This document shows positions 3,901 to 63,152 of a stretch of 64,000 bases of DNA, in pieces; position 1 is the first letter of the stretch, and each line of letters begins with the position of its first letter. The position numbers and the translations under genes are program-made. This DNA comes from Candidatus Elulimicrobium sp. (lineage in GTDB: Bacteria; Patescibacteriota; Minisyncoccia; Phycocordibacterales; UBA918). The stretch is taken from NCBI GenBank assembly GCA_022730015.1, contig DZBU01000001.1, forward strand, positions 1,307 through 65,306, given 5' to 3'. The notes under the pieces were generated by a model. It searched no databases, was not told where the DNA came from, and saw only the letters and a program-made list of their open reading frames with translations.

Positions 3901-6900
3901 TCATCGCCAACTCATACGCACACGGTGAGTAGTAGTACGGGCAGTGTTTCAAACGAACCACCATACATAGAGGTTTTGCTTGGACAGATCACTAGTGATG
4001 CAGTGCCGCCAAACGGTCTCATTGCTATGTGGGATGAGGCAGTCGATAGTGGTTGGCTAGATGTTTCTTCTGGTCCTACTGATCCATTCAATCAACGTTT
4101 TCTTAAAGCCTCGACCACATATGGCGGCACCAACGACACTCGTTCACATGCGCACAGTAATGTGACGGGACTCACGTCGTCTGTACCGAGTGTTACTGTC
4201 ACTACGGCTCGTGCTGGCTCGGGTGGTGCAAGTGATGTGCACACGCACTCCGTTTCGGTTACTGATTTTTCTATCAGTGATCATCTACCACCGTATCTCA
4301 CGGTAGTCTTTGGGAAACGACAAGGAAATGATCCTGTGTATCAGCAAGTGTCTTCACGTTGGTATACCAACACCAACGCAGAGACACCAACTGATGCGTG
4401 GCCAAGTGGCGCACTTAATCTTATTGAACGTGAGCCGATCACTGCAACGAGTACTCCGGTCAAGGATGGGGATGAAGTTCGATTACGTCTTAATGTTGGG
4501 GTGTTAAATGCGACCTCGACGGTTGGCAGTAGTTTTAAATTGCAGTACGCAGCAGCTGCGGTGTGTAGCACGGCAACTGGCTGGGCAGATGTTGGTGATA
4601 CGGCTTCAACGACTCTGTGGCGTGGCTATAACAATACCTCGGTAAATGATCATGTGACACTGTCGACTTTACTCTTGAGTTCTTCAACAGTTACCGCAAC
4701 GTATGAAGAAAATGGATACGCGACCAGTACCCCAAACAATATTCCTGTCGCTGGGTATGGTGAGTGGGATTTTGTCTTGCAGCAAAATGGCGCACTAGCG
4801 GGCACTAACTACTGTTTCCGTTTAGTAGAGAATGATGGAACAGCTTTCCTTTCCTATACACATTATCCGCAGCTTTACACCAACGAAGCGCCGGCTGCTC
4901 CAGCGCTCCAAAAATTATTTGATAACGAAAAAACGGCTTCTACCACCCCATGGTTCTACTTCCTTGCGACTGATGCTGAGGGTGAGAAGGTGCATTACGA
5001 GATTGAGATTGATAATGATTTTACCTTTGCTTCACCGGTTATTGATCGTAATACCATTTCTAATTCTGCAGAGTTTGAAAACCAAGTTCTCATTTCTGAT
5101 AAGGCACCGTTTAGACAAGGTGAGTTGATTGAATTTATCCCTACCACCGCACTCAGTAACGGCACGACATACTATTGGCGTGTACGTGGCCAAGATCCAG
5201 AAGGGTCAGCTGATTGGGGTGAGTGGTCGACTATTCGAAGCTTTACTATCGATAATACTCTCGACGCGAGCGCTTGGTACCAGACTCAAGATGAACAGTT
5301 TGATACAAATATACTTGCTGGCGTACAGACAGGAAGCGATCAGATGGTGCTTATCAGTGGTTCTTCAACTGGTTCGATGATCAGTACACCGATTGATTTC
5401 ACTGATGGTGATCGTGGTACTGCGTGGGATAGCTTAGTGTTTGCTGATACGGAAACCACTGGCTCGATCTCATACCAAATTCAGTATCTCGATAACACAA
5501 GTACGTGGACACTCGTTCCAGAGAGTGCGCTCCCAGGAAACGGTACTGGCTTCGGCACATCACCGGTGTCACTGCTTGGACTTGATGTCGGAGTATACTC
5601 ACAGTTGCGCATTATCGCGAACTTCACCAATACTGGCGGTTCACCATCACTACAAGATTGGACGCTATATTGGGGTTATCGAGTAGAGACTCCGATCATT
5701 GCAAAGCTTTTCCCGAATGAGCAAGTGGGTACTACCACGCCATCATTTGAATTCAGAACCAGTGATCCGCAAAGTGACAGTTTGACCTACCAAATACAAT
5801 GGTCGCTAACCCCAGATTTCGCAGCATCAACGACTCGCTCATCTGATGTTGATCTTGGTTTTTCAAATATTGATGCTGGTGCTGATCTTGACCCGTTTAA
5901 TTCGGATGACAGTATCCAATTTACACTTCAGTCTGCTGACGCGCTGACGGGTACGACTACCTACTGGTGGCGAGTACGCGCTAAGGACACGACCGGTGAT
6001 AACGCGTGGTCATTTTGGACAGATGCACAAAGCTTTACTGTCATTCCAGGTACTGAGGTCTCTACTTGGTTCCAAACTACCGAGGAGCAATTTGCCAGTA
6101 ACATTCTCTCTGGAACGATTGCTCTGGCCTCTGACGCGGTGTCAGTAGCTACTACCGCAAGTGAAGCGATGATCGTCTATGGTGAAGGAACCGAAACAGC
6201 GCCACGATACAGACAATGGGACGGTACGAATTTGAGTACGGAAAGCACGCTTCTCGATATTGGTGCGCCAACCAGATGGGCAGTCGTACGAGCTGCCACT
6301 ACTCGGGAAGAATATGTAGCAGCAACTGTAGGAACAGATGCTGACGTGAATGTCCAAGTGTTTGCCACTGGGGAATGGGGAAATCAGGTAGAACTGACAA
6401 CAAATGTTGGAAGTGTTGCTGCTCGTGGGATTGATGTCGCGTACGAGACAACTTCTGGTGATGCTTTGGTCGTCTACTGCGACGGAGATGCTGATCCTAG
6501 CTATTATCTATGGGACGGAACAAGTTGGACAAGTGGTGGCACCATTAATCTCGCGTCTACAAATAATTGTGAATGGATTAAACTAGCTTCAGATCCGGTT
6601 TCTAACGAGATCATCCTAATGGCCCGTGATTCAGATGGTACTGTAGCTACTTCCTATGAGTTACAAGTTTGGAACGGATCTGCGTGGGGTAACTCTACAA
6701 CGCAGGGTGGTGCACGAAACAGCGCGTACGAAACCATGGCGCTTGGCTATGAAGCTAGTGGCGGTCAGGCGCTCTCAGTTTCTGGCGATGGTAACCCAAT
6801 ACGATTTGAATATAACAGTTGGAACGGTACCGCTTGGGCCGGTCTTACTACGAATACTACGATTACGGATAACCTGATCTGGGCTGAATTGAGCAATGAT

Positions 6901-9900
6901 GATGGTACCGATAATATGGCGATGTGTTACGTCAACGAATCAACAAATATTGGAGCGATCCGTTGGAACGGTACTGCATGGACGGGACAAACTAATCTTG
7001 ATACGGCTGGCAATTCTATTGCAGATCGCTCAGTTTCTTGTGTCTATGAAACTACAGCTGGTCGTGATGGTAACCTGCTTGCTGTCTATAGCGACACAAC
7101 TAATGCCCGTTACCAGGTTTGGAATGGCACGACATGGTCAGCTGAGGCATCAATTGGTACGATTACAAGTGTGTCCACTATTCAGGCGATTCGAACGGGA
7201 GCAGGTAGTGTCCTTGGTCTATTTTACGATGATGTAAATGATCGTATCGACTTTTCAGCTTGGAACGGTACGACATGGAGTACAGCAGCAACGATCGAGG
7301 CAAATGGTTCAGTTGATGCGGCGCCATATGGACAACCATTCTTTGCTGCACCACGCAACGATGGTACTGAAGGTACCACCATTGTTAGCCCAGGTGTGGA
7401 TTTCAACGCCGGAGTAGGACCATACTGGAAGACATTCTCATGGAACGATACTGTGCCGGGAACAAGTCAAATTCTATATCATTTGCAGTATCAGACGGCG
7501 ACGGGCAGCTGGGCATTTATTCAGAATGCTGCCTTGCCGGGTAACGAAGTAGGAACGACGACTGGCCCGTTCGATCTTTCTGCTCTCGATACAAATACAT
7601 ACAATGTTATTCGACCGTATGCTGAACTTTCTTGTGACGGATCAGGAAACTGTCCTTCGATTGAAGATTGGAAGATCGAGTGGGCGGGTGGTATTACTAT
7701 TTCAGGTGCCATCCAAGGATATGACCAATCAACAAACGTAACGAGCGGTACCGTCGCTGTGTCGGTCAATGGTGTTTTACAAACTGGAAAGACAGGTGCT
7801 GTTAGTGGCGGTACATGGAGCATTAGTAACGTTACGGTATTCCCTGGGGATGTGGTTTCAGTTTTTGTTACCGCAGCAGCGGATTCGAATGAAGCAGTGG
7901 CAATCGCTCGGTACGATGGGCAAGGAGATATGGATGGTTTGGTTTTGTACGAACGACATCTCACGCTTGGCTCGAATGATGCGACAACCACACCATTCAC
8001 GAATGCTGACATTGGACTCTATGATTCCACAAACACGGAAGACGTATTTTTTGCTGTAACTACTGATACGCTTTCGGTCTGTGCTGCTGGTGACTGTACT
8101 GATGCTGAGTTGTTTATCAAATCGGGAGCATACTACACTCCGGGAGGACGTATCGTAACGCATGATTTTGAAAATAACGGTACTTTCACTGCCGGCTCAT
8201 TCACGCACGAAATAAATGGATCTTGGGACAATAATGCGACAACGACCATGACTGGTTCAGCTGTTGTCTTTGCTGCCACTAGTACAACCGAGACGATTGA
8301 TAGTACTGGGGCGGTAAGTGCAAGTTTCAACAATACTACCTTTGGTACTACGACGGGAAGTGGAGTATGGAATCTCCCTTCCGAACTAGATGTAAACGGC
8401 AATCTAACTGTGTCCCTCGGTACGTTGGCGCGCGGTTCAACTAGCATCACGATAGGTGGCAATTTGGTCACTGGCGCCAATGGATATTGGACCGGCATTG
8501 GCACTACGACTTTTGATGGTGGCACGGCTGCAACGTGGAATGATCAAAACACAACAAAACAAAATGTCGGGCGGGTGGTAATAGATGGTACTAGCAAGGC
8601 AGTCAGTTTGGCTGGCAATGTCGCGACTGAGTCTGTGACCATTGGTACCAATGACACCTTTGATGCTTCGACGGGTAGCTATGACATCATGGTCTATGAC
8701 AGTTGGCTCAATCAAAACAATTTCGTAGCACGTAGTGGTGAAGTTATCTTTGCCGCAACTTCTAGTGGTAAGACCATCACGACAACAGGAGATGCGTTCT
8801 ATGACTTGTCCTTCACTGGTGTAGGTGGCGGTTGGTCGTTCACCGAGTCGACGTTACTGGTGAATAATGATCTCACTATTGCGACCGGAACAGTGACATT
8901 ACCAACCGCCACCACAACTATTGCTGGATCATTCAATGCAACTGGTGGTTCGTTTGCACATAATAATGGAACGCTGTACTTCACTTCGGCGGCGGCAGAA
9001 ACAATCACCTTCAATGGCGGTTTATTCACCAACGTCGCCCACGATCTCACTTTTAATGGTGGTGGTAGCTGGACCGTGAATGATACTAATGCTACGAGCA
9101 CTAACGATGTACGGGTGACTCAAGGTACGCTTAATTTCCCGACTGGCGTCTTCGCAATCGGCGGTACGCTGGTAGATGGTGGTGGTGTGTACACAGGCGG
9201 TGTAGGAACGGTACTTTTTTACAGCAGTGCAGCTGAGGTGCTTACTCCTGGTGGTTCGAGTTTTAATAATGTCACGTTTGCTGGCTCCGGTTCCTGGTCG
9301 TTCTCAGACTCAAACGTAGATGCAAATGGTGATTTGGTGGTACAGCAAGGAATACTCACTTTGCCAAATGGCGCCTTTACCTTGGGTGGCTCATATGACA
9401 ACAATGCAACGGTTGTACCTGGTACTGGGGTGCTCACCTTTGATGCGGCGGGTACCGGTAGGACTGTCGATTTTGGTGCCTCGAGCTTGTATGACGTTGA
9501 CTTTAATAGTGCGACTGGTGGTTGGACCGTCACCGCACCAGCTACGACAACACGCAATTTCTCTCTCACAAATACCGATACATGGACACTTGCGAGCGGA
9601 CAAGTGCTTTCAGTTGCCGGTACGTTTAGTAATAGCGTGGGTGGTGCCTCTACTACCTGGACTGGTTCGGCACTCAGTCTAGAAGCTGGAAGCTATAGTC
9701 TCAATACCAAGACTAACAATGGAGACACTTACGAGACAGTGAGAATTGCAGCCGGCACAAACATAGCGATGTGGAATTCATCAGCTGCATCATATACGGT
9801 TGACGCTGCTGGCTCACTTTACTCACAAGACCATGCTGGAATCGATGGTGACCTATACATCTTTGGAGCGTATACAAGAGGTAGTGGCACAGAGTATTGG

Positions 9901-12900
9901 AGTTACACTCAAGACTTCGATGGCGCTAGTCTTTCTGGAAGTGAGCGTCAAGTTGATGTTCGCTTTGCCTCTGGTGCGAGTGCGACTTTTTCTGGGGCAA
10001 CAGTTGAAGTAATCGGAACAAGTACTGCTTCTACAACGATCGCCAACCAGGGCGCTGGTACTTACGCTGTAAATGTTAGTGGAGGCACAACAACGGCGCA
10101 GTATTATGAGTTCGCTGATCTTGGTTTAACTGGTGTAACTCTTAGTAATGCGGTACAAGTTTCTGAGCTCAGTGACGGTTCCTATACGGTTGCTGCTCCA
10201 GGGGGCACAGCACTCACGCTTTCTTCAACAACCATCGATGCGAACCCAGGCAAGCAGATATTTAACGTTACTTTTGCTACGACAACAGTTATTACGGCAA
10301 CAAACGTCACCCAAAATGATGGAGTACCGTCTTCGTTCTGGTGGTTCCGTGATGGCTACGGAAATCTCTACGGCGAGGGGTACGACAATGATACTGGCGA
10401 TCCTGGTTCAGTGCGCTTTGATGATAGTTCACTGGTGATCACTATTGTTGGTACGGTGTACAGTGATGCGGGAACGACACCTATTGTCGGTGGTACTTGT
10501 GACGGAATCACTCCGGTAGTACGAGTAATGGTTGGTGGAGTGCTTGCTACAACAACCAGCTGTAGTAATGTCGATGGTTCATACACAGCCTCTGGTGTGG
10601 TAGTGATTGGTGATCCAACTGTTACTGTTTTCCTCAATGACGCTTCGGGTGGACAAAAGGGAAGTACAATCACTCGGACACCAACTGGAGACATCCTCGA
10701 TATGGATATTTACACCAATCGTGTAATCGTTCGTAATGAAGATATTGATGCACTAACCATTGGAAACTTGGCTGCATATGATAGTAGTGATGATGCTGAC
10801 TTACGCTTCAGTGCGGCAACCTCTACTAGTGTTGATAGTTTGAATGTGTTTGCTGGCAATGAGCTCTTTGTCTTTGCTTCGTCGACTTTTACACCAGGTG
10901 GGGTAGTGACGCTCGCGGCGAATACGGCCGCCAATAGTTACGATGGTACGTTGTATCTAGCTGGTGATGCGACGTTCAACGCACACAGTACCTCGACCGT
11001 AACGATTGGCGGCCGCCTCGAACTCGAAGCTGGTGCGGTCTTCAATGCCGCGAGCACGACCGTACTTATGAACGCCACAACGTCTGGCAAGAGTATCACT
11101 GCACCGAGTGAGATTATGTTCAATGAGCTCGTCTTCAATGGGGTGAGTGGCGGTTGGAATCTAGGGGCTGACATTCGCGTGAATGGTGATATGACCATCA
11201 CAGCTGGTACGGTCACTGGTACTGGTGATATCTATCTGCCAAACGGTTCGCTCTACGGTAATGGTGTGCTTTCACTTGGTGCTGGTACAACCACGCTCGC
11301 GGCCGCTAATTCACTTGGTGGCAATAGTGCTTGGACCTTCTATGATCTTGAACTTGGAGACACGCTCCAGGTCGGTACTACCACACCACTTTTCACTAGT
11401 ACCACCACCGTCTCTGGTCGTCTTACTATCAATGCTGCTCATTATCTTGATGCTGGTAATACAAGTTGGGATCTCTCTGGAGCCGGCATCGTCTTTGTAG
11501 AGAATGGCACTTTTATCGAAGATACCAGCACGATCCGCTACAGTGGCGCCGGCGCCAGTGTGCTCGCTACTCAATATTACAACTTAGACATCAACGCTGG
11601 TGCCAGCTCACAAACCTACATCGCGACTGGTCTTGGACTTATCGTCGATAATGATCTCACGATTGGTGGTGACGCCGCATCAACATTCGATCTCGCTACC
11701 AACGATCCGCTGCTCGATGTCAATGGTGATGTGATCATTCACAGTAATGGCACTTTGGCTGCAAGCGATACGGGCACGTTCACCATTGCGGGGAGTTATG
11801 ATAATAATGGTGTTTTTACCAGTAACTCTGGAACAACTACTTTCGATGGTTCAGGTGCAACCACAATCGCTGCGGGAAGTAGCAGTTTTGGTTCGGTGCT
11901 TGTCAATGGGACTGGCAACGTGACCGTGAGTGAGCATGCAACGGCAACCAGCAACTTCACGTTAAATGCCGCCAATACCTTCACAGTCTCGAGTGGTCAG
12001 TCACTCGCGATCGGCACAAAATTCTTTAATGCGATTGGTGGTGCAGCGACCACTTGGACTGATTCGACCCTTCGTCTTTACGGTGGTGGTAACTACAGTA
12101 TCAATGTCGCAACTACCAGCGACACGTACGCTACGCTAGATATTGAAGGCACGACGCAGATACGCATGTGGAATTCTGATGCTGCTACCTACGATGTTGC
12201 TTCAACCGGTTCGCTGTACTCACAAGACCATGCCAGTGTTGATGGTGATCTGTATATCTGGGGTGCGTACAACCAAACTAATGCCAACGATTACTGGAGC
12301 TATGTGACTGACTTCGATGGTGCCGCACTAGGCAGCCCACGCAAGGTCGATGTGTACCTTGCCTCGGGTGCGAGTGTGACCGTGACTGGTGGCACCTTTG
12401 CAGTATTCGGCGGCACCACGGCATCAACAACAATCCAGAATCAGGGTTCTGGCTCATATGGAATCGTTGTTGGTGGCAATGCGTCGTCTTCGTTTGAATA
12501 TGCAGAGACGCGTGATATGAACAGCGCTGGCCTTACTTTTACTGGCGGAGCCAAGGTCAACAAACTCTCCTACAATGATTTTTCTGTTTCGCAAAACGGC
12601 GGCACCACAATTATGATCGGTGGCACTGTCATCACTGCCAATCCAGCTAAAAACTTTACTAATAATCGGTTTTGGCTTGATGGTGTTGGTAGCGGCTTCA
12701 ACGTGACAGCGACGGGTACTAGCGTCAGTTCATGGCGTTTCGTGAATCATTACGGTGACATTGACGGTGAGTCATTTGATGTAGATCCAAACGGCGACCC
12801 AGGCTACGTCGCGTGGGATAATTCTGCCGCTCTTATCACCATTTCAGGTAATGTGTACAGCGACGAGGGTTCGACTGTTTCGGGCGTTTGTGACGGAACG

Positions 12901-15900
12901 ACAGGCAATATTCGTCTGGTGGTGGCTGGACTTTCGTCTGCTACCTCAAGTTGTAATGCTAGTACCGGCTACTACCAATTCACTAATGTTGCGTACGGCC
13001 CGACCGATCCGTTGATTGTCTACATTGACGGGGAAACCGAAAAGGGAACTTCAGTCACTAAGGAACCAGTTTCTAACATCAACGATCTTCATGTTTATGA
13101 AAATCGAATTATCGTTCGACACGAAAATACCGATCCAATGACGGTCGCTGACATGGCAGTTTACGATTCATCAGATGATGCAGATGTTCCATTTACTGCA
13201 GTAGATTCTGGTACGGACACACTGACGCTTCCAACTAATCGTAAATTACTCGTCTGGACCAATAAGGAATTTGCACCAAATGGTAATGTCACGGTCAGTG
13301 GTGGTGGAGCCGGTGCAGCCTACGATGGCACTCTTGAGCTTCAAACTGGCGCGACTTGGTCTGGCTCGGGAGCTGAATCGCTAGATATTGGTGGTAGCTT
13401 ACTGGCTGGTTCTGGTGCAGCTTTTGTGTCTGCAAACAATGGTACGACAACATTTACTACGACTGGCGCTAATCGTACTATCGACCTCAATGCCGCTGAT
13501 CTCAATAATGCTGCCTTTACCGGAAGTGGCAGCTGGACGGTTACTGACACAACATTTACCGTTGGTGGCAATTTTACGCAAACTAATGGTGTCCTCACTT
13601 TCCCTACCGCAACGACAACTTTCGGTGGTTCATTACAGGTTAGCGGTGGTAGCTTTAATTCAAATAACGGAATCACCCTCTTTAACGGTAGTGGTGCTCA
13701 GGTGATTGCACTGGCTGGTTCTTCGCTGGCAGCGGTGCAGTTCGTGAGTGGTAATTACAGTTTTAGCGATACGGCAGCGACTACTACCAAGTCGATTACT
13801 ATCTTGGGTGGAACAGTAACACTCCCAAGTGGTACGCTCACTGTTGGTGGAGACTTCGAAAACGTTGCAGGCGTTATCGCACACAACACGAATGAACTTA
13901 TCATGACGAGCACAACTATCGCACTCGTGCAGGCGTCTAGTTCAGACTTATACAGTGTTCGCTTTACTGGCGGTGGTGCCTATGAATTTACCGATGATAG
14001 CATCGCGTTACTTGGTAGTCTTACAATTGATGCTGGAGCGGTGCAGCTGGCTTCGGGTACGCTTTCAATCGGTGGCACCTTTGACGCTGCTGGTGGCACA
14101 TTTGATCACGCCACTGGTACGATCCTTTTCAATTCAGCCGATGGGGGAGAGTTCGTCGATGCTGGTGTTAGTCCTTTCTATAATGTTTCATTTAGTGCAC
14201 CCGCAGGCGGATACACGCTTGTGAGTGACGCTACGACTACCAATCACTTCACCCTGTCAGCTGTGAACAGTTTCACCACCCTTAGTGGTACGACGCTGGT
14301 TGTACAAGGAGTCTTCCTCAATCAGGTTGGTGGTGCTAATACCAACTGGGCTGGTAGCACCCTAGTGCTTGATGGAGCAAATGCATACACAGTAAATACT
14401 AAAATCGCTGGCGGTGATCAGTACGATACGCTTATCGTTGGTGAAAATAGTGACATTCGATTCTGGAATTCGGCAGCTACTACGACTACAGTTAATCAAA
14501 GTGCTTCAGTGTACTCACAAGATCACGCTAGTGCTAACGGTAGCCTTTACATTTTTGGTGATTTCCATATAGGGACTACAACTGAATACTGGAGTTATGC
14601 GACTGATTTTGATGGTTCCTCACTTACTGGTAGTGAACGATTAGTAACTGTTGCACATGCAACCAACGCCACGACGTCAGTTGATGGTGGTACGCTTCGA
14701 ATAGTTGGTATTACTGGGAATGAGACGACAATCACTAATCAGGGTACTGGCACCTATGCACTCAATGTTTCGGCTGGTACCTTGTTGGCACAATATTACA
14801 AATTCCGAAATCTTAATATTGAGGGACTTGCTCTCACAGGAACTCCCGTCATATCATCACTTGCATACGGAGATTTCGAATTGGCAGTATCAGGAGGCAC
14901 ACTCATGACAGTGGCATCAACCACACTCAACGCAAACGCCTCAATGGTATTCACAGGAAATCGTTTTGCTACTACCACCGCGATCACTGGTTACAACGTA
15001 ACATTAGTTGGTTCAACGAGTAATGCGTGGACTTTTGTCTCACATACAGGCAACTTAGATGGAGAAGATTTCGACGCTGATGGTGTGACAGCTTGTGGTT
15101 CGATCCGCTGGAGTGACAGTGCGTGTCTTCTTACCCAGCAGACGAACTATCGCTGGCGCAATGATGATGGGGGGCTCGGAGTACCAAATAATGAGTGGTA
15201 TGACGCAAGCTGGGACGCCCGCACATTTATTCGTGTAAGAAATGTTGATGCTACGAGCTATACTGATGCGGTGGTGAAAGTACCGGTTACTTACGATAGT
15301 GACATGCAAGCAGACTTTGATGACCTTCGTTTCACTGCAGGCGATGGAACAACAGTGCTTTCACACTGGCTTGGTTCTTCAACGGATAGTATTGCAGCTG
15401 AAGTTTGGGTAAAGATCCCTACGCTTGCTGCTGAGAGTACGACAAACATCTTCATGTACTACAACAATCCGTCTGCTACGACGATCAGCTCGAGTACGGC
15501 AGTCTTTATTGCTGCTGACGATTTTGAAACTGGTTCACTTGCTGCCTACAGTGGTCAGACGAGTCTCTTTACCGTCGGTACCACTTTCGCCAATGACGGT
15601 GTGTATGGGCTCGATAACAGCGGTGATGAAAGTGGCAGAGCTAATACTGGTGGTATCTATCGTTTCGATCAGGTGGTTGGCCAAGGGGAAACTTTCCGCT
15701 ACGCTCAATATGTCGATACTGTCGCAGGTTCTGGCGATGAAACCTGTACACTTTTCGGTGTTCAGTCACCTGGTTCCACCAACGAAAATTATGCAGTCTG
15801 TATTGAGCAATTCGGAACAGATCGTCTATCGTTGGTCCGTGATGCGATCGATAATGACACCTCAGGTGTGGTTTTGGCTTCCACGACAGTGAGTTACGCA

Positions 15901-17424
15901 ACGGGTTGGTATACCGTGGAGGTTGATTGGGGAATTGACGACAGTTTCTTAGTCTCGCTATATGATGCCTCAGGGACTTTAGTTGCGACAACTTCCGCTA
16001 CCGATAGTAATTATTCTACTGGTGGTATTGGATTTACTTACTGGTTTCATTACGGTGGTTGGGATAGTGTCAGCTCTCGCCCAACATTAACAACGGAACC
16101 AACAATACTGCTTGGTGTAGAGCAGACTGATGGAGGCGCAACCTGGAAAGCAGCGCAAAACACTGCTGCTACTTATGATACGAGTGATGTTGCTCGACTG
16201 CGCTTCGCGATTGAAAATACCGGTCTTGCCATTGTTGATCAACAATTCCTTCTTGAGTATGCATCGATGGACAGCGCTCCAAGTTGTGAAGCGGTCGATC
16301 CAACTGCCTATATTTCAGTACCTGTACAGGCAAGTTGTGGTACTGCTCCAGTGTGTATGCAATCGTCCACGCTCATTACCAATGGTGCAGGAACGATTGA
16401 TCTTCTGACTGGGGTGGAAGGAGTGTTTGTTCCTGGCGAAGCTCGCGAAGATCCAACAAATATCACTAGCGCGATCGATATCGATCAGAATCAATACACT
16501 GAACTGGAATACGCAATCACTCCGACCACAAACGTTACTGATGAAAACCTTTGTTTCCGAGTTACCGATAATGGTGCTGAATACGATACGTATCTCCAGG
16601 TGGCTCAAATGAATCTGCGCTTCGTGCCGGTGGTCAGTACGATCACTTTGAATGATGGTCAACCGATCTCGCTCTTGCCAGGAACTACCACTAGGGTTTA
16701 TGCGACAGGTACCGTAAGTGATCTTAATGGCTATGCAGATTTGGTGTACGCGACTTCAACTATCTATCGTGGTGGTGTTGCTGGTGGAGCATCGTGTACA
16801 CCAAACAATAACAACTGTTACGTTTCTACGACAGAAACAGCGGCTTGTTCGTTTGTCGATTGTTTGGGTGAAAGTTGCACGGTCGAGTGTTTCGCTGATA
16901 TTTATTTCCACGCTGACCCAACCGATGCTGGTGATTACGTGGGACAAGAATGGTTTGCTTTTGTTGAAGTAGAGGACGCTACTGCTGGGTATGATTTTGC
17001 AACCTCACCTGGAGTGACCCTGAGCACTCTCCGAGCGATCGAAGTAAATGGTGCGATCGACTATGGTGCACTCGCGGTGAATGCTGATACTGGATCGTAC
17101 AATGCATCAACATCGATTTTAAATCTTGGTAATGTGGGAATCGATATTGAAATCACAGGTACTGATCTTTCGGACGGTCTCTCATCGGTTATTCCGGTTG
17201 ATAAGCAAAAGTTCGCTACCTCTACCTTTACGTACTCAGCCTGTGGTGCAAGTTGTGAATTGCTTTCAAGTACAACTCCAGTCTCGATTGATGTCGATCT
17301 TGGTAAACCAGCGACTGATAATCCACCAATTTCTGATGATGTCTATTGGGGTATCGCGGTACCGATCGGTGTCAGTAGTGTGCCTCACCAAGGAATTAAC
17401 GTCTTTACGCCAGTCACACCGTAA
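934..17424 (+). CDS. Giant secreted multidomain surface/adhesin-like protein (5,496 aa as tracked). The likely true start is TTG 1021, giving MQRFSSATYVLFLIFTLLVFTHA|ETAF as a signal peptide.
   Basis: Single uninterrupted ORF of 16.5 kb. It has a signal-peptide-like h-region, a P/E/V/T-rich linker, recognisable domains (see findings) and a C-terminal module shared with three other proteins in the window. Confidence 0.85.
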   Translation: MVHCVVKKKHPYNTNGNRIITIFKAPKWILQRFSSATYVLFLIFTLLVFTHAETAFSKRPLEITFGTQQTLNLFPTQVNTTDWAGIENVLIQDLTDTALYQDFGARTSAYVPQEKLIIPSSAGVPTEYVPVIEGATASSVVDGQAVPEEGGAGVIGSQPEVVAPIEPTPEQLPVETQVSPEPGAVLEPPANESVVEPVSMIEPSSTAVFAPAWGLFPLAQLSVVTSTETAAQDIVDVAAPTETAQTPDTAIVEDLSQPISGVEQVVGVVSTSSESAAPEQSSAETTVTEGSVVPLATPAAATVETEVHEITLSNFGSAPLEPGQFVNGMRLTLSLAAQLEQPASGRIPYIEVLYGASSTPEVVGMILLEDEVSNALNGGYFFFALPTVSDVSELADKTVTLRYHGAHDDLDGMFLDAVWLEIDTRTVTKEDLRARGIAGALAELQLPSVTTLISEKSNFRRDENPIFNLRYNSQRNFIVRGLRHMFGRELVSVESVEVRHRSFGSLGIEPELTVTKDGLLTIEIPDASLKNMRPGAYEITLTLNEGGREFTDTFDFQWGILTMNPNKSEYQTGETAHISIGALTPNGHTICEAALDLYVTDPTGIISRYAVNPSGQCNGNNVVDVPDFSALVPVVEPGVYELYLERLDDAGAVLGFTTDTFNSVTNQELSIERTGPTRIYPPAPYPMTLTVSTTKSFIGTLTETVPASFGIYDTDAYIVSDGVWQTLTWDLSILGAGKESVSYRFDAPDISPYLFTLGPARLDTERVAPADIPNASTSATSSPGISSPGTNVFIEHRRWQIASDAVGKMLLFWPDGATVPAGWLCVSCTSGEPFFQRFVMGSSTYNTTGGAATHTHTATGSVLATSDITTENTGSGVIAIGTHTHTYTPTISAVSNLPAYRQLRVIRYDAAAGEPPTIPAGAIGVFDVASSSLPSGWNRYAAQDGRYIYGENTPGTTGGSNTHTHTITGTVDAASGGSYQSRGPDAANGSSPTHTHTVSSSTGSVSNEPPYIEVLLGQITSDAVPPNGLIAMWDEAVDSGWLDVSSGPTDPFNQRFLKASTTYGGTNDTRSHAHSNVTGLTSSVPSVTVTTARAGSGGASDVHTHSVSVTDFSISDHLPPYLTVVFGKRQGNDPVYQQVSSRWYTNTNAETPTDAWPSGALNLIEREPITATSTPVKDGDEVRLRLNVGVLNATSTVGSSFKLQYAAAAVCSTATGWADVGDTASTTLWRGYNNTSVNDHVTLSTLLLSSSTVTATYEENGYATSTPNNIPVAGYGEWDFVLQQNGALAGTNYCFRLVENDGTAFLSYTHYPQLYTNEAPAAPALQKLFDNEKTASTTPWFYFLATDAEGEKVHYEIEIDNDFTFASPVIDRNTISNSAEFENQVLISDKAPFRQGELIEFIPTTALSNGTTYYWRVRGQDPEGSADWGEWSTIRSFTIDNTLDASAWYQTQDEQFDTNILAGVQTGSDQMVLISGSSTGSMISTPIDFTDGDRGTAWDSLVFADTETTGSISYQIQYLDNTSTWTLVPESALPGNGTGFGTSPVSLLGLDVGVYSQLRIIANFTNTGGSPSLQDWTLYWGYRVETPIIAKLFPNEQVGTTTPSFEFRTSDPQSDSLTYQIQWSLTPDFAASTTRSSDVDLGFSNIDAGADLDPFNSDDSIQFTLQSADALTGTTTYWWRVRAKDTTGDNAWSFWTDAQSFTVIPGTEVSTWFQTTEEQFASNILSGTIALASDAVSVATTASEAMIVYGEGTETAPRYRQWDGTNLSTESTLLDIGAPTRWAVVRAATTREEYVAATVGTDADVNVQVFATGEWGNQVELTTNVGSVAARGIDVAYETTSGDALVVYCDGDADPSYYLWDGTSWTSGGTINLASTNNCEWIKLASDPVSNEIILMARDSDGTVATSYELQVWNGSAWGNSTTQGGARNSAYETMALGYEASGGQALSVSGDGNPIRFEYNSWNGTAWAGLTTNTTITDNLIWAELSNDDGTDNMAMCYVNESTNIGAIRWNGTAWTGQTNLDTAGNSIADRSVSCVYETTAGRDGNLLAVYSDTTNARYQVWNGTTWSAEASIGTITSVSTIQAIRTGAGSVLGLFYDDVNDRIDFSAWNGTTWSTAATIEANGSVDAAPYGQPFFAAPRNDGTEGTTIVSPGVDFNAGVGPYWKTFSWNDTVPGTSQILYHLQYQTATGSWAFIQNAALPGNEVGTTTGPFDLSALDTNTYNVIRPYAELSCDGSGNCPSIEDWKIEWAGGITISGAIQGYDQSTNVTSGTVAVSVNGVLQTGKTGAVSGGTWSISNVTVFPGDVVSVFVTAAADSNEAVAIARYDGQGDMDGLVLYERHLTLGSNDATTTPFTNADIGLYDSTNTEDVFFAVTTDTLSVCAAGDCTDAELFIKSGAYYTPGGRIVTHDFENNGTFTAGSFTHEINGSWDNNATTTMTGSAVVFAATSTTETIDSTGAVSASFNNTTFGTTTGSGVWNLPSELDVNGNLTVSLGTLARGSTSITIGGNLVTGANGYWTGIGTTTFDGGTAATWNDQNTTKQNVGRVVIDGTSKAVSLAGNVATESVTIGTNDTFDASTGSYDIMVYDSWLNQNNFVARSGEVIFAATSSGKTITTTGDAFYDLSFTGVGGGWSFTESTLLVNNDLTIATGTVTLPTATTTIAGSFNATGGSFAHNNGTLYFTSAAAETITFNGGLFTNVAHDLTFNGGGSWTVNDTNATSTNDVRVTQGTLNFPTGVFAIGGTLVDGGGVYTGGVGTVLFYSSAAEVLTPGGSSFNNVTFAGSGSWSFSDSNVDANGDLVVQQGILTLPNGAFTLGGSYDNNATVVPGTGVLTFDAAGTGRTVDFGASSLYDVDFNSATGGWTVTAPATTTRNFSLTNTDTWTLASGQVLSVAGTFSNSVGGASTTWTGSALSLEAGSYSLNTKTNNGDTYETVRIAAGTNIAMWNSSAASYTVDAAGSLYSQDHAGIDGDLYIFGAYTRGSGTEYWSYTQDFDGASLSGSERQVDVRFASGASATFSGATVEVIGTSTASTTIANQGAGTYAVNVSGGTTTAQYYEFADLGLTGVTLSNAVQVSELSDGSYTVAAPGGTALTLSSTTIDANPGKQIFNVTFATTTVITATNVTQNDGVPSSFWWFRDGYGNLYGEGYDNDTGDPGSVRFDDSSLVITIVGTVYSDAGTTPIVGGTCDGITPVVRVMVGGVLATTTSCSNVDGSYTASGVVVIGDPTVTVFLNDASGGQKGSTITRTPTGDILDMDIYTNRVIVRNEDIDALTIGNLAAYDSSDDADLRFSAATSTSVDSLNVFAGNELFVFASSTFTPGGVVTLAANTAANSYDGTLYLAGDATFNAHSTSTVTIGGRLELEAGAVFNAASTTVLMNATTSGKSITAPSEIMFNELVFNGVSGGWNLGADIRVNGDMTITAGTVTGTGDIYLPNGSLYGNGVLSLGAGTTTLAAANSLGGNSAWTFYDLELGDTLQVGTTTPLFTSTTTVSGRLTINAAHYLDAGNTSWDLSGAGIVFVENGTFIEDTSTIRYSGAGASVLATQYYNLDINAGASSQTYIATGLGLIVDNDLTIGGDAASTFDLATNDPLLDVNGDVIIHSNGTLAASDTGTFTIAGSYDNNGVFTSNSGTTTFDGSGATTIAAGSSSFGSVLVNGTGNVTVSEHATATSNFTLNAANTFTVSSGQSLAIGTKFFNAIGGAATTWTDSTLRLYGGGNYSINVATTSDTYATLDIEGTTQIRMWNSDAATYDVASTGSLYSQDHASVDGDLYIWGAYNQTNANDYWSYVTDFDGAALGSPRKVDVYLASGASVTVTGGTFAVFGGTTASTTIQNQGSGSYGIVVGGNASSSFEYAETRDMNSAGLTFTGGAKVNKLSYNDFSVSQNGGTTIMIGGTVITANPAKNFTNNRFWLDGVGSGFNVTATGTSVSSWRFVNHYGDIDGESFDVDPNGDPGYVAWDNSAALITISGNVYSDEGSTVSGVCDGTTGNIRLVVAGLSSATSSCNASTGYYQFTNVAYGPTDPLIVYIDGETEKGTSVTKEPVSNINDLHVYENRIIVRHENTDPMTVADMAVYDSSDDADVPFTAVDSGTDTLTLPTNRKLLVWTNKEFAPNGNVTVSGGGAGAAYDGTLELQTGATWSGSGAESLDIGGSLLAGSGAAFVSANNGTTTFTTTGANRTIDLNAADLNNAAFTGSGSWTVTDTTFTVGGNFTQTNGVLTFPTATTTFGGSLQVSGGSFNSNNGITLFNGSGAQVIALAGSSLAAVQFVSGNYSFSDTAATTTKSITILGGTVTLPSGTLTVGGDFENVAGVIAHNTNELIMTSTTIALVQASSSDLYSVRFTGGGAYEFTDDSIALLGSLTIDAGAVQLASGTLSIGGTFDAAGGTFDHATGTILFNSADGGEFVDAGVSPFYNVSFSAPAGGYTLVSDATTTNHFTLSAVNSFTTLSGTTLVVQGVFLNQVGGANTNWAGSTLVLDGANAYTVNTKIAGGDQYDTLIVGENSDIRFWNSAATTTTVNQSASVYSQDHASANGSLYIFGDFHIGTTTEYWSYATDFDGSSLTGSERLVTVAHATNATTSVDGGTLRIVGITGNETTITNQGTGTYALNVSAGTLLAQYYKFRNLNIEGLALTGTPVISSLAYGDFELAVSGGTLMTVASTTLNANASMVFTGNRFATTTAITGYNVTLVGSTSNAWTFVSHTGNLDGEDFDADGVTACGSIRWSDSACLLTQQTNYRWRNDDGGLGVPNNEWYDASWDARTFIRVRNVDATSYTDAVVKVPVTYDSDMQADFDDLRFTAGDGTTVLSHWLGSSTDSIAAEVWVKIPTLAAESTTNIFMYYNNPSATTISSSTAVFIAADDFETGSLAAYSGQTSLFTVGTTFANDGVYGLDNSGDESGRANTGGIYRFDQVVGQGETFRYAQYVDTVAGSGDETCTLFGVQSPGSTNENYAVCIEQFGTDRLSLVRDAIDNDTSGVVLASTTVSYATGWYTVEVDWGIDDSFLVSLYDASGTLVATTSATDSNYSTGGIGFTYWFHYGGWDSVSSRPTLTTEPTILLGVEQTDGGATWKAAQNTAATYDTSDVARLRFAIENTGLAIVDQQFLLEYASMDSAPSCEAVDPTAYISVPVQASCGTAPVCMQSSTLITNGAGTIDLLTGVEGVFVPGEAREDPTNITSAIDIDQNQYTELEYAITPTTNVTDENLCFRVTDNGAEYDTYLQVAQMNLRFVPVVSTITLNDGQPISLLPGTTTRVYATGTVSDLNGYADLVYATSTIYRGGVAGGASCTPNNNNCYVSTTETAACSFVDCLGESCTVECFADIYFHADPTDAGDYVGQEWFAFVEVEDATAGYDFATSPGVTLSTLRAIEVNGAIDYGALAVNADTGSYNASTSILNLGNVGIDIEITGTDLSDGLSSVIPVDKQKFATSTFTYSACGASCELLSSTTPVSIDVDLGKPATDNPPISDDVYWGIAVPIGVSSVPHQGINVFTPVTP
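3300..4330 (+). repeat. Three tandem phage tail-collar (MdpB-like) domain repeats inside the giant ORF.
   Basis: Three units of the form '...P.GW(L)...C..C/...FxQRF..GxxxxYGGT...THTHT' each end in 'PPY[IL]xVL/VFG': 'PAGWLCVSCTSGEPFFQRFVMGSSTYNTTGGAATHTHT', 'LPSGWNRY...GGSNTHTHT...PPYIEVLLG', 'DSGWLDVSSGPTDPFNQRFLKASTTYGGTNDTRSHAHS...PPYLTVVFG'. Confidence 0.6.
6160..7330 (+). repeat. Seven ~50-aa 'W[ND]GTxW' repeats, a predicted 7-bladed beta-propeller, inside the giant ORF.
   Basis: YRQWDGTNL, YLWDGTSWT, QVWNGSAWG, NSWNGTAWAG, IRWNGTAWTG, YQVWNGTTWS, SAWNGTTWS occur at regular ~50-55 aa spacing. Confidence 0.5.
8070..15120 (+). repeat. Three divergent tandem intragenic super-repeats (~2.3-2.4 kb each; the third is truncated). 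Each is a PATR-like parallel beta-helix section, then a 'W[TA][GD]S.L.L.G..Y..N......Y.T..........WNS.A.......S.YSQDHA...G.LYI[FW]G' domain, then a carboxypeptidase-regulatory-like 'VYSD.G...V...CDG' domain.
   Basis: Protein-level register anchors: WTGSALSLEAG at nt ~9660, WTDSTLRLYGG at ~12052, WAGSTLVLDGA at ~14348. All three copies contain 'SLYSQDHA', and the DNA shows 'tactcacaagaccatgc' and variants. The beta-helix parts show 'NVTFAGSGSWSF...GTLTLP.G.F..GG' type ~25-aa periodicity. Confidence 0.55.
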
Positions 17425-17451: not shown

Positions 17452-19014
17452 ATGCAGCAGTTCATCAGCTTCGTTTCTCTTGTGATTCTTGTTTTTACTA
17501 ATCAGCCAGGTTTTTTGTTTGCACAAACAACAGACAAGGAAGCTCCAGATATCACCAACGTCGAGGTCTCACAAGTTTCCGAGACTAGTGTCACCGTCAC
17601 TTGGGAGACCGACGAATCTTCAGATTCAACGGTTAACTATGGTTTACAGCCTGACTACGGTATCGTCCGCATACCGGTTGCTGATCGAACACAGCACTCC
17701 ATCACGCTAGATCGGCTAGAACCTGGACGAGTCTATTATTTCCGTGTGGTGTCTGCCGACGATAGTGGTAACCAAGGAATTTCAGCTGATTATCGAGTAC
17801 AGACATCAGGTACACCGCAGACTGGTGAGGGAAGTGGTACAGGGCAGTCAACGGCTCAGGGGCAAGGACAGGGAGCAATGGCTGGTGATGGTAGTAGTAG
17901 CCAAACTCAATCTGAAACGGAATCAACGACCAGCTCACAATCACAGTCTCAAACTCAAACGACACAAGAGATCGTTGAACAGATCAATCAAATCACTGAT
18001 CCGCAGCAGCTTAAAGAGATCGTCAACGAAACCGTAAAAGCGATTCAGGGTATTACAGAGGACCTTACTATTGTTGGTCCTCCAACCGTTATTCCAGAGA
18101 CAACTACTGCGCTTGTACGCTGGACAACTGATCGAGAGGCGTCATCTAAAGTCATCTTTTCTCCATCGCGTGGTTTTGATGGAGCAACTTTTGCATACGC
18201 ACAGGAATCAACACAAGGAAACACTACTGATCATGAGGTGCAACTGATCGGACTGTCTGCCTTTACTGATTACAGTTTTAAAGTGATTTCAACCGATACC
18301 TACGGTATTACGGGTGAAAGTCGCACGTTCACCTTTCAGACAAAAGCCACCATGCCAGAAATTCGAAATTTGCGAGTGCTAAAAGTGGAAGAAGATGCAG
18401 CTACCTTGGCCTGGGATACAAACGTACCAACCAAAGCCTTGATTGAGTATCAAGATCAAACTACTGGAGAACAGCAATCAGTGGGAAGACCAACCCTTGC
18501 AACCACGCACCAGATGCGTCTGTCTAACCTAACGCTTGGTACACGTTACGTTGCTTTCGTGACTGCTGAAAACTCAGGTGGTGACCGAGTGCGAAGTCAA
18601 CCGGTCCAGTTCATTACAGTTCGTGACACCGCAGCGCCGATCATTACTAACGTGACCAATGAATCAACTCTTTTCCCGGGTGGAGAATCACGTATTCAAA
18701 CTATCGTGGCGTGGGACACCGACGAATCATCGTCGTGTCTGATGACTTATCAGGAAGGTGTCGCAGGAGGTACTGAAGCGTACACGATTGAAAAAGAACA
18801 AATATCATATAACACGAAACACGTTGAAGTGATTGTCGATTTTGCACCGGCAACGGTATACCAGTTTTATCTAACTTGTACCGATGAGGCAGGAAATGCG
18901 GTAAAGTCAGAGAATTTTGTGCTGTTCACTCCGATTCAAGAGAAGAACATCATTGACTTGATCCTAGAAAACTTCCAAAGCACATTTGGGTGGGTTAAAA
19001 ATATCGGAGGCTAA
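17452..19014 (+). CDS. Secreted protein with four fibronectin-III / purple-acid-phosphatase-N-like domains and a Q/S/T/G-rich linker.
   Basis: Signal peptide MQQFISFVSLVILVFTNQPGFLFAQT. Repeated 'VTVTWETDESSDS.V.YG...HS..L..L.PGR.YYFRV.S.D..GN' units. Confidence 0.8.
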   Translation: MQQFISFVSLVILVFTNQPGFLFAQTTDKEAPDITNVEVSQVSETSVTVTWETDESSDSTVNYGLQPDYGIVRIPVADRTQHSITLDRLEPGRVYYFRVVSADDSGNQGISADYRVQTSGTPQTGEGSGTGQSTAQGQGQGAMAGDGSSSQTQSETESTTSSQSQSQTQTTQEIVEQINQITDPQQLKEIVNETVKAIQGITEDLTIVGPPTVIPETTTALVRWTTDREASSKVIFSPSRGFDGATFAYAQESTQGNTTDHEVQLIGLSAFTDYSFKVISTDTYGITGESRTFTFQTKATMPEIRNLRVLKVEEDAATLAWDTNVPTKALIEYQDQTTGEQQSVGRPTLATTHQMRLSNLTLGTRYVAFVTAENSGGDRVRSQPVQFITVRDTAAPIITNVTNESTLFPGGESRIQTIVAWDTDESSSCLMTYQEGVAGGTEAYTIEKEQISYNTKHVEVIVDFAPATVYQFYLTCTDEAGNAVKSENFVLFTPIQEKNIIDLILENFQSTFGWVKNIGG

Positions 19015-19075
19015 GCAGACTACATCTGTGGATGGAAGAGAGTGATATTTGTGTGGGCGATGCAATAATAGGGTA

Positions 19076-24644: not shown

Positions 24645-24645
24645 T

Positions 24646-60900: not shown

Positions 60901-60973
60901 GGGCCCGTAGCTCACTTGGTAGAGCGCCTCATTTGCACTGAGGAGGCAGGGAGTTCGAATCTTCTCGGGTCCA
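60901..60973 (+). tRNA. tRNA-Ala (anticodon TGC).
   Basis: Manual cloverleaf. Acceptor GGGCCCG/CGGGTCC has the G3:U70 Ala identity pair. D-arm GCTC-ACTTGGTA-GAGC. Anticodon arm CCTCA-TTTGCAC-TGAGG. T-arm GGGAG-TTCGAAT-CTTCT has two G:U pairs. Discriminator A. CCA is not encoded. Confidence 0.8.
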
Positions 60974-60976
60974 CAA

Positions 60977-63074: not shown

Positions 63075-63147
63075 GGGCCCTTAGCTCATTCGGTAGAGCG
63101 CTTCCATGGCATGGAAGAGGCGAGCGGTTCGAATCCGCTAGGGTCCA
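63075..63147 (+). tRNA. tRNA-Ala (anticodon GGC).
   Basis: Manual cloverleaf. Acceptor GGGCCCT/AGGGTCC with G3:U70. D-arm GCTC-ATTCGGTA-GAGC. Anticodon arm CTTCC-ATGGCAT-GGAAG. T-arm AGCGG-TTCGAAT-CCGCT. Discriminator A. An extended -10 tgctacaat lies at 63056-63064. Confidence 0.85.
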
Positions 63148-63152
63148 CAAAT

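What the first reader, a model, noticed from the sequence alone, without database searches (positions are those of the whole stretch)
8070..15120. Three ~2.3-kb divergent intragenic super-repeats (beta-helix + 'SLYSQDHA' domain + CarbopepD-like domain)
Protein-level alignment shows the same ~780-aa cassette three times. Register anchors are at nt ~9660, ~12052 and ~14348, and the third copy is cut short at ~15120. Repeat copy-number change by recombination would lengthen or shorten the stalk, which is a classic phase/length variation route for adhesins. The amino-acid divergence is probably ~40-50%, which argues the duplications are old and selected rather than an assembly artefact.
Basis: seen in the sequence. 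Interest (0 to 1): 0.55.

Follow-up and report, generated by a model that had tools for sequence, protein, structure and literature searches.

The report
Fixed triple beta-helix cassette, giant protein
A 5,496-residue surface protein of an ultra-small (Patescibacteria/CPR) bacterium contains three ancient, strongly diverged copies of one Ig-plus-beta-helix module, and because the number three is conserved in every related genome examined, this is a fixed-length shaft and not a length-variable adhesin.

Summary
ORF 934..17424 (+, 5,496 aa) holds three tandem copies of a ~770-920-aa cassette. Between copies, BLASTP gives 265-342 bits, against at most 26 bits for shuffles. The true bounds are nt 7684-15126. 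The 'SLYSQDHA domain' is the conserved C-terminal third of the same beta-helix, not a separate fold.

The triplication is old and is not an artefact:
- Copies are 35-37% identical overall.
- Their SLYS domains mostly group by position across genomes.
- An independent assembly of this population matches with no gaps.

Copy-number change by recombination is not supported:
- The longest in-register exact DNA match in the window is 17 nt.
- 96 of 96 related loci with complete flanks, and about 30 full-length homologues, all have exactly three cassettes with near-constant spacing.
- Three relatives show 467-711-nt conversion tracts between cassettes 2 and 3, yet still keep three cassettes.

Most likely role (inferred): the fixed-length central shaft of a conserved, N-terminally anchored extracellular fibre of Patescibacteria. 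Its gene sits in a conserved gene cluster with an fn3 protein and a MacB-type ABC transporter. The fibre probably serves attachment to a host or a glycan.

The parts
934..17424 (+). Giant ORF, 5,496 aa from the first TTG. The true start codon is uncertain, and public gene calls give 5,495 aa.
1036..1098 (+). The only strongly hydrophobic segment (aa ~35-55). It is a putative signal peptide or N-terminal membrane anchor, followed by a P/E/T/V-rich linker.
   Evidence: Kyte-Doolittle windows above 1.6 occur only at aa 32-39 onwards; the role is inferred
7684..10437 (+). Cassette A (aa 2251-3168, 918 aa): Ig-like 7684-7962, linker 7963-8142, beta-helix 8143-9510, conserved SLYS segment 9511-10434. 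Its helix is longer than in B and C.
10438..12825 (+). Cassette B (aa 3169-3964, 796 aa): Ig-like 10435-10725, linker 10726-10896, beta-helix 10897-11907, SLYS segment 11908-12828. It was modelled with AlphaFold2 (pLDDT 89, pTM 0.78).
12826..15126 (+). Cassette C (aa 3965-4731, 767 aa): Ig-like 12826-13110, linker 13111-13278, beta-helix 13279-14199, SLYS segment 14200-15126. Its tail, TACGSIRWSDSAC, carries the Cys residues specific to third copies.
9820..9837 (+). YSQDHA motif of cassette A. The equivalent motifs lie at 12217 (B) and 14512 (C). Together with the invariant WSYxxDFDG...R it forms the family signature.
15313..15540 (+). DUF2341 domain (Pfam PF10102, E 1.5e-17), just after cassette C. 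It opens the conserved ~766-aa C-terminal part.
17452..19014 (+). fn3-domain protein. It lies downstream of the giant gene in 111 of 116 loci.
19049..20398 (+). ABC transporter ATPase. It is found in the same relative position in 108 of 116 loci.
20428..21642 (+). MacB_PCD + FtsX permease. It is found in the same relative position in 92 of 116 loci.
21746..23602 (+). 618-aa ORF with no Pfam match. It is found in the same relative position in 115 of 116 loci.

Best explanation
The region encodes three ancient tandem copies of one structural cassette. Each cassette has a ~95-aa Ig-like (transthyretin-like) module with a conserved Cys pair (in cassettes B and C), a ~56-aa linker, and a ~600-700-aa right-handed parallel beta-helix. 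The last ~300 residues of the helix carry an invariant signature (YSxDH ... WSYxxDFDG ... R ... GE..D).

Together the cassettes form the central shaft of a ~5,500-aa extracellular protein. The protein has a single N-terminal hydrophobic anchor or signal and a DUF2341/LamG-type C-terminal part. It is conserved in Patescibacteria (CPR; the related MAGs are labelled Parcubacteria, Paceibacteria, Kaiserbacteria and the like). Its gene heads a conserved gene cluster: giant gene, fn3 protein, ABC ATPase, MacB/FtsX permease, 618-aa ORF.

Shown here: the triplication predates the divergence of most of these lineages. The number three and the lengths of cassettes 2 and 3 are under strong constraint.

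Inferred: the cassettes act as a rigid spacer of fixed length. About 25 rungs at 0.48 nm give about 12 nm per helix, or roughly 45-50 nm for the three cassettes with their Ig modules. This is an estimate from the model's strand count and the textbook rise per rung. Each cassette would present one copy of a conserved polar site. The whole protein most likely mediates attachment to a host cell or a surface glycan. It does not work as a recombination-driven variable repeat.
For: Anatomy: self-similarity; module HMMs recover Ig-link-SLYS three times in frame.

Fold:
- The AF2 model of cassette B has pLDDT 89 and pTM 0.78 and is all-beta.

Fixed number and length:
- 96 of 96 complete loci have three cassettes.
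- About 30 full-length homologues of 5,310-7,696 aa all have three.
- Cassette 2 is 789-810 aa in 87 of 88 loci.
- The Ig-to-SLYS distance of cassette 3 is 453-484 aa in 110 of 110 loci.
- All three cassettes lie in one open frame in 116 of 117 loci, and the C-terminal tail is 754-773 aa.

Age: SLYS domains group by position, with nearest neighbours in the same position for 248 of 264. Position-specific C-terminal tails are visible.

Constraint on a site: 17 columns are 100% invariant across all 264 SLYS domains, including DFDG, R, E, two W and two Y.

Extracellular location: one N-terminal hydrophobic segment only, and paired Cys in the Ig modules of cassettes B and C.

Gene cluster: conserved order downstream.

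Context: giant (>4,000 aa) DUF2341- or FhaB-bearing proteins of Patescibacteria have been noted and proposed as adhesion or host-interaction factors (PMC11809585). Pili-like appendages connect ultra-small cells to hosts in cryo-TEM images (PMC7906910).
Against: No function has been tested, and no characterised homologue exists at the sequence level. Pfam and NCBIfam give nothing, and the PDB profile search gives only E~0.08 to a PL3 pectate lyase.

The beta-helix fold is shared by adhesins and by glycan-degrading enzymes, so the fold alone cannot separate binding from catalysis.

Surface localisation, oligomeric state and the rod-length estimate are all inferences. The role of the adjacent MacB-type transporter is unknown.

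The relatives were found through the conserved SLYS motifs. Divergent family members with a different cassette number could therefore be under-sampled, and paralogues with one or two cassettes do exist.
Confidence: 0.6

Rival explanations
1. One reading: a length- or phase-variable adhesin stalk. Homologous recombination between the three cassettes would add or remove copies and so change stalk length within populations.
For: The cassettes are direct tandem repeats of one module. In three relatives, cassettes 2 and 3 share exact tracts of 711, 473 and 467 nt (L137, L041, L049). Intragenic recombination, at least gene conversion, therefore does occur in this family. A paper on another Patescibacteria giant protein speculated about domain reshuffling and antigenic variation (PMC11809585).
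Against: In the window, the longest in-register exact match is 17 nt. The A-versus-C comparison gives no blastn HSP at all. Copy number is three in 96 of 96 loci and in about 30 full-length proteins. Spacing is almost invariant. Even the relatives with conversion tracts keep three cassettes of normal length. An independent assembly of this population shows no structural difference.
Confidence: 0.04
2. Enzymatic shaft: each beta-helix cassette is an active polysaccharide depolymerase, lyase or hydrolase of the tailspike / pectin-lyase-fold type. The protein would be a three-site machine that degrades host envelope glycans, not a passive fibre.
Confidence: 0.22
3. Cell-envelope scaffold: the protein is a structural component of the cell's own envelope or of an appendage that depends on the MacB-type transporter. 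The fixed length would set an envelope or appendage dimension, and host binding would not be its role.
For: Length is under very strict constraint. The gene is tightly linked to a highly conserved MacB/FtsX ABC transporter, with ~76-81% amino-acid identity across loci. The protein is widely conserved and is not variable, which is unusual for host-range determinants.
Against: There is no direct evidence. The N-terminal 2,000-3,800 aa vary greatly among lineages, which suits a variable distal part better than a housekeeping scaffold.
Confidence: 0.12
4. Assembly artefact: the repeats were created by mis-assembly of a shorter gene.
For: None beyond the general risk that repeats pose in metagenome assemblies.
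Against: The copies are only 35-37% identical, so assemblers cannot confuse them. The NCBI MAG, Logan and JGI contigs agree, and the JGI contig spans the whole array with 1 mismatch and 0 gaps. The same architecture is found in more than 100 unrelated assemblies.
Confidence: 0.01

Closest known systems
Giant (>4,000 aa) DUF2341- and/or FhaB-domain proteins of Patescibacteria, noted in the Patescibacterium danicum paper (PMC11809585)
   Same: Same phylum and size class, a DUF2341 domain is present (E 1.5e-17), and the proposed role is adhesion or host interaction.
   Different: That paper found no full-length homologues for its own proteins and speculated about rapid domain reshuffling. This family is the opposite. 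It is widely conserved, with a fixed three-cassette architecture and a conserved gene cluster. The Pfam scans found no FhaB domain here.
Beta-helical adhesins of diderm bacteria: autotransporter passengers (Ag43, pertactin, Hbp, Pet) and TPS exoproteins (FHA, HMW1, EtpA)
   Different: The Pfam scans detect no autotransporter beta-barrel and no TPS secretion domain. Instead there is an N-terminal hydrophobic anchor or signal. The helix is broken into three Ig-separated cassettes. Sequence identity is 9-13%.
Beta-solenoid adhesins of monoderm bacteria: the L. reuteri SRRP binding region (5nxk) and Caldicellulosiruptor tapirins (6n2b, 6n2c)
   Different: Those proteins have a single small solenoid (~200-350 aa), not three ~650-aa helices in tandem. 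There is no sequence similarity.
Phage tailspike or tail-fibre depolymerases and pectin-lyase-fold CAZymes (PL6, GH28, GH87, GH110)
   Different: No significant sequence match to any such family. Trimerisation and catalysis were not tested.
Length-variable tandem-repeat surface proteins (for example staphylococcal SasG/Aap, streptococcal Rib/alpha-C).
   Same: Tandem intragenic repeats in a surface protein.
   Different: In those proteins the repeats are nearly identical at the DNA level, and copy number differs between strains. Here DNA identity is essentially lost (longest exact match 17 nt) and the number is fixed at three.

Membership tests
Recombination-driven length-variable repeat adhesin | Repeat units are near-identical at the DNA level and so provide a substrate for homologous recombination or slippage | tested here: not met
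   The longest in-register exact match is 17 nt. The best blastn HSPs are 64-70% identical over 119-426 nt, and A versus C gives none.
Recombination-driven length-variable repeat adhesin | Repeat number differs among strains or close relatives | tested here: not met
   There are three cassettes in 96 of 96 complete loci and in about 30 full-length homologues. Another assembly of the same population has the identical structure. Within-population read data were not available.
Right-handed parallel beta-helix (pectin-lyase-like) fold | Stacked three-strand rungs forming a right-handed solenoid | tested here: met
CarboxypepD_reg (Pfam PF13620) | Sequence match to the Pfam model above its gathering score | tested here: not met
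   The three Ig-like modules give no hit, even at E<=10. There is only a weak fold-level resemblance to transthyretin (Foldseek probability 0.91, E 0.46).
Autotransporter (type Va) or two-partner-secretion exoprotein | A C-terminal beta-barrel translocator, or an N-terminal TPS (haemagglutination activity) domain | tested here: not met
   Pfam scans of the whole protein detect only Ig_Rha78A_N and DUF2341.
DUF2341-containing giant proteins of Patescibacteria | More than 4,000 aa, with a DUF2341 domain, encoded in a Patescibacteria genome | tested here: met
   The protein is 5,496 aa. DUF2341 matches at E 1.5e-17. The closest loci are almost all MAGs labelled Patescibacteria, Parcubacteria, Paceibacteria or Kaiserbacteria.
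Polysaccharide lyase / glycoside hydrolase of the beta-helix class | Family-specific catalytic residues or motifs and measurable activity | not testable with these tools
   There is no significant sequence match. Invariant D, R and E residues exist, but their geometry and any activity could not be assessed.

The most novel reading that the evidence does not exclude
The giant protein is a conserved host-contact apparatus of Parcubacteria/Paceibacteria-type CPR bacteria. Its three position-orthologous beta-helix cassettes would each carry an active glycan-binding or glycan-cleaving site (the invariant YSxDH / DFDG / R / E signature). Their fixed number and length would act as a molecular ruler that sets the distance between symbiont and host. 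Assembly or function would depend on the co-conserved fn3 protein and the MacB-type ABC transporter.
Probability: 0.15. Interest if true: 0.65.

Novelty: new member of a known kind. Interest (0 to 1): 0.33.

Why it matters
Patescibacteria have tiny genomes and are mostly thought to live attached to other cells. How they attach is largely unknown beyond type IV pili. In such a genome a 16.5-kb gene is a large investment.

This gene keeps the same three-cassette architecture, near-constant cassette lengths and the same downstream genes across at least 79 species-representative genomes. That makes it a good candidate for a core surface structure.

Showing that the repeats are fixed changes the experiment one would do. 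The useful work is binding or activity assays on a single cassette, and cryo-ET for a fibre of defined length. Strain-level repeat typing would not help.

The cassette also defines a domain family that neither Pfam nor NCBIfam covers. It has 364 representatives among 1.84 billion proteins.

Tried and rejected
- A whole-protein BLASTP self-hit returned only the identity HSP. I replaced it with chunked queries.
I rebuilt the alignment from window copies plus substrings of homologous-protein hits (A4, A5).
- The word-indexed protein search found only 13 and 25 hits, mostly fragments. The exhaustive search was needed to see the full-length giants.
- Pfam at E<=10 on separate modules, NCBIfam, and a PDB profile search gave no usable family assignment.
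- The SLYS segment modelled alone was of lower quality (pLDDT 69). Its last ~80 residues are unreliable. I therefore used it only to ask whether the fold is distinct, and it is not.
- UPGMA clustering of SLYS domains did not split cleanly into three positional clusters. This is because one subclade has homogenised copies, so the claim that copies group by position rests on nearest neighbours and position-specific tails.
- Literature searches for this family, its gene cluster or a triple cassette found nothing specific.
- Assembly artefact and the autotransporter/TPS classes were considered and rejected (see rivals and membership tests).
Full report
**Observation.** The region lies inside one very long ORF, 934..17424 on the + strand, 5,496 aa. 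A plain self-BLASTP collapses into the identity hit. I therefore queried 400-aa chunks against the whole protein. Three strong off-diagonals appear:

| Offset | Segments | Identity | E-value |
|---|---|---|---|
| ~+800 aa | 2813-3200 vs 3614-3997 | 47% | 2e-89 |
| ~+765 aa | 3613-3973 vs 4374-4738 | 40% | 2e-68 |
| ~+1565 aa | 2801-3170 vs 4363-4734 | 44% | 2e-84 |

The motif YSQDHA occurs at nt 9820, 12217 and 14512. The similarity is not a composition effect of this T/G/S/A-rich protein. Real inter-copy scores are 265-342 bits. Forty global shuffles and forty local-window shuffles reach at most 26 bits, and cassette B against the rest of the protein gives about 20 bits.

**Register and boundaries.** Weaker hits showed that aa 2251-2530 resemble 3169-3427 and 3965-4252. 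A three-way alignment starting at these points is collinear end to end. Each unit has four parts:
- an Ig-like module of ~95 aa;
- a ~56-aa linker containing 'IVRxED...YDSSDDAD';
- a beta-strand-rich stretch of variable length;
- a conserved ~308-aa segment holding the SLYSQDHA motif.

HMMs built from these modules recover exactly Ig-link-SLYS three times, in one frame:

| Cassette | nt | Length |
|---|---|---|
| A | 7684-10437 | 918 aa |
| B | 10438-12825 | 796 aa |
| C | 12826-15126 | 767 aa |

The third copy is therefore not truncated. Pairwise identity is 35-37% overall and 42-48% in the SLYS segment.

**DNA level.** The copies are nearly unrecognisable as DNA. There is one 426-nt HSP at 64% (A/B), one 119-nt HSP at 70% (B/C) and none for A/C. 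The longest exact in-register match is 17 nt, inside the YSQDHA codons. Codon-shuffled controls give 14-15 nt.

**What the cassette is.** Pfam finds only Ig_Rha78A_N (aa 1604-1702) and DUF2341 (nt 15313-15540) in the whole protein. It finds nothing in the repeat zone, even module by module at E<=10. NCBIfam finds nothing. A profile of the three copies against PDB sequences gives only E~0.08 to a PL3 pectate lyase.

AlphaFold2 on cassette B used a 32-row alignment of window copies and database fragments. It gives a confident all-beta model with pLDDT 89 and pTM 0.78. Residues 1-100 form a small sandwich. From ~155 to 796 there is an unbroken run of ~74 short strands.

**Relatives.** Pattern scans with the SLYS alignment returned 79 loci from species-representative genomes and 80 from metagenomes. 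Almost all of the genome loci come from MAGs labelled Patescibacteria, Parcubacteria, Paceibacteria or Kaiserbacteria. Many carry an automatic 'Saccharibacteria' label.

Scanning all loci with the module HMMs gave these results:
- Every one of the 96 loci with at least 3 kb of flank on both sides has three cassettes. Five apparent exceptions are SLYS domains split into two hits. Four have 0.7-1-kb insertions in SLYS1, and L036 has SLYS1 and SLYS3 split with frame changes.
- Start-to-start spacing has medians of 2394 and 2301 nt. The window has 2397 and 2295.
- Cassette 2 is 789-810 aa in 87 of 88 loci.
- The Ig-to-SLYS distance of cassette 3 is 453-484 aa in 110 of 110 loci.
- All three cassettes lie in one open frame in 116 of 117 loci, and the part after cassette 3 is 754-773 aa (window: 766).

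An exhaustive profile search of 1.84 billion representatives finds only 364 proteins. The ~30 full-length giants (5,310-7,696 aa) all have Ig-link-SLYS three times. Their length differences come from the N-terminal 1,700-3,900 aa. Smaller paralogues with one or two cassettes exist. The cassette is therefore a duplicable unit over deep time, but its number is frozen at three in this orthologous family.

**Age and recombination.** Among 264 SLYS domains from 88 genomes, the nearest neighbour occupies the same position in another genome in 248 cases. Mean identity is 52.6% for same position in different genomes, against 48.0% for different positions in the same genome. The C-terminal tails are diagnostic: 'GDPGY.VWDNS' in second copies and '.ACGS.RW.DS.C' in third copies. 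The triplication therefore predates most of the sampled divergence.

One subclade departs from this, with within-genome identities of 55-87%. At the DNA level, cassettes 2 and 3 of L137, L041 and L049 share exact tracts of 711, 473 and 467 nt. This is the signature of recent gene conversion. Collapse by the assembler cannot be fully excluded. Even there, the number and lengths of cassettes are unchanged. Recombination between copies does happen in the family, but unequal outcomes are not seen.

For the window itself, the same fn3 neighbour is found on five contigs. An NCBI MAG (GCA_973318325.1) is 100% identical over the 5.6 kb compared. A JGI contig is collinear with window 7452-27586 with one mismatch and no gap. 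These may derive from the same reads, so this rules out assembler artefacts but not population variants.

**Where length does vary.** Cassette 1 falls into discrete classes of about 610, 950 and 1,300 aa between Ig and SLYS. The extra ~340-aa steps are DUF2341-like modules inserted into its helix, with up to three in P0070. The N-terminal third of the protein varies much more.

**Context and likely function.** The protein has a single strongly hydrophobic segment at aa ~35-55, followed by a P/E/T-rich linker. The Ig modules of cassettes B and C carry a nearly invariant Cys pair. Both features fit an extracellular, N-terminally anchored protein, but this is inferred.

Downstream, the order fn3 protein, ABC ATPase, MacB_PCD/FtsX permease, 618-aa ORF is kept on the same strand in 92-115 of 116 loci.

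Seventeen SLYS columns are 100% invariant across all positions and genomes. They include Y, W, YS, W, DFDG, R and E. That is more than a solenoid needs for folding and suggests one conserved binding, metal or catalytic site per cassette.

With ~25 rungs at 0.48 nm per rung, each helix would be about 12 nm long, and the three cassettes with their Ig modules roughly 45-50 nm. This is an estimate from the model's strand count and textbook geometry.

My best reading is a fixed-length rigid shaft of a conserved surface fibre used for attachment to a host or a glycan. An enzymatic (depolymerase-like) version is the main rival. Giant DUF2341/FhaB proteins in Patescibacteria have been noted and proposed as adhesins (PMC11809585). 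Pili-like links between ultra-small cells and hosts have been imaged (PMC7906910). I found no paper describing this family, its triple cassette or its gene cluster.

**Verdict.** The repeats are real, ancient and conserved. The domain parsing needed correction. The proposed recombinational length variation is not supported for this gene and is contradicted by the comparative data.

As a kind of thing, it is a new and uncharacterised member of the known class of giant beta-helical surface proteins with internal domain duplication. It is of moderate interest, mainly as a well-defined candidate for the attachment biology of CPR bacteria.

Noticed in passing
window 3310-4430 (aa ~793-1165 of the giant ORF): Three to four ~110-aa internal repeats, each with His-Thr runs (THTHTATG, GTHTHTYTPT, NTHTHTITGT, PTHTHTVSS, DVHTHSVSV). 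Self-hits are 793-927 vs 1011-1165 and 807-999 vs 921-1108. There is no Pfam match. The HxH pattern recalls metal-binding HxH motifs of phage tail fibres, but that comes from memory and was not tested. This region was found in only 34 of 116 related loci (most loci may not reach that far upstream).
   Followed up: partly
window ~6112-7290 (aa ~1727-2120): A series of ~50-100-aa repeats with the motif W(N/D)G(T/S)xW. The self-hit offsets are ~100 and ~206 aa. This may be a beta-propeller-like domain. There is no Pfam match.
   Followed up: no
window ~4900-7680 (aa 1323-1483 vs 1587-1747; aa 1476-1580 vs 2144-2250): Two further duplicated module pairs lie upstream of the cassettes. One is an Ig_Rha78A_N/fn3-like 'TTYYWRVRA' domain, and the other is a ~105-aa domain that also sits directly before cassette A.
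   Followed up: no
L137, L041, L049 (cassettes 2 and 3): Exact identical DNA tracts of 711, 473 and 467 nt link cassettes 2 and 3 within one gene. They indicate recent gene conversion in a subclade, yet the cassette number and lengths are unchanged.
   Followed up: yes
L001, L007, L009, L088, L101 (first SLYS domain); P0047 aa ~3619-4190: In several lineages a 0.7-1-kb insertion interrupts the first SLYS segment near HMM position ~260-290. In P0047 the insert appeared, by eye, to be extremely Gly-rich ('GGGGGGSATGF...GGGGAGG').
   Followed up: partly
P0044, P0048, P0058, P0066, P0070, P0073 (cassette 1): DUF2341-like modules are inserted into the beta-helix of cassette 1, with one to three per protein. 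They produce the discrete length classes of ~950 and ~1,300 aa.
   Followed up: yes
window 24535-25752, 28320-30080, 30779-31522: Small proteins just downstream of the conserved gene cluster have weak cohesin and dockerin/EF-hand matches plus bacterial Ig domains. They hint at a cohesin-dockerin-type surface assembly in this CPR genome.
   Followed up: no
window 33372-38894: A second large ORF (1,840 aa, + strand) has no Pfam match at all.
   Followed up: no
window 1-64000: Almost every long ORF is on the + strand, and the cumulative GC skew rises nearly monotonically across the whole 64 kb. The window seems to lie within one replichore and shows very strong gene-strand bias. Two tRNA-Ala genes lie at 60901-60974 and 63075-63148.
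   Followed up: no
L036, L064, L080: Three loci with the typical three-cassette gene sit in MAGs labelled Acidimicrobiales, Neomarinimicrobiota and Gammaproteobacteria. One protein fragment (P0002) is also labelled Gammaproteobacteria. These are probably binning contamination, not horizontal transfer. L036 also carries frameshifts.
   Followed up: no
L001 (GCA_964455445.1) and L002: In these two relatives the giant gene is split over three reading frames and was called as several ORFs. In 116 of 117 other loci the three cassettes lie in one open frame. Sequencing or assembly indels, or pseudogenisation, could explain the splits.
   Followed up: partly
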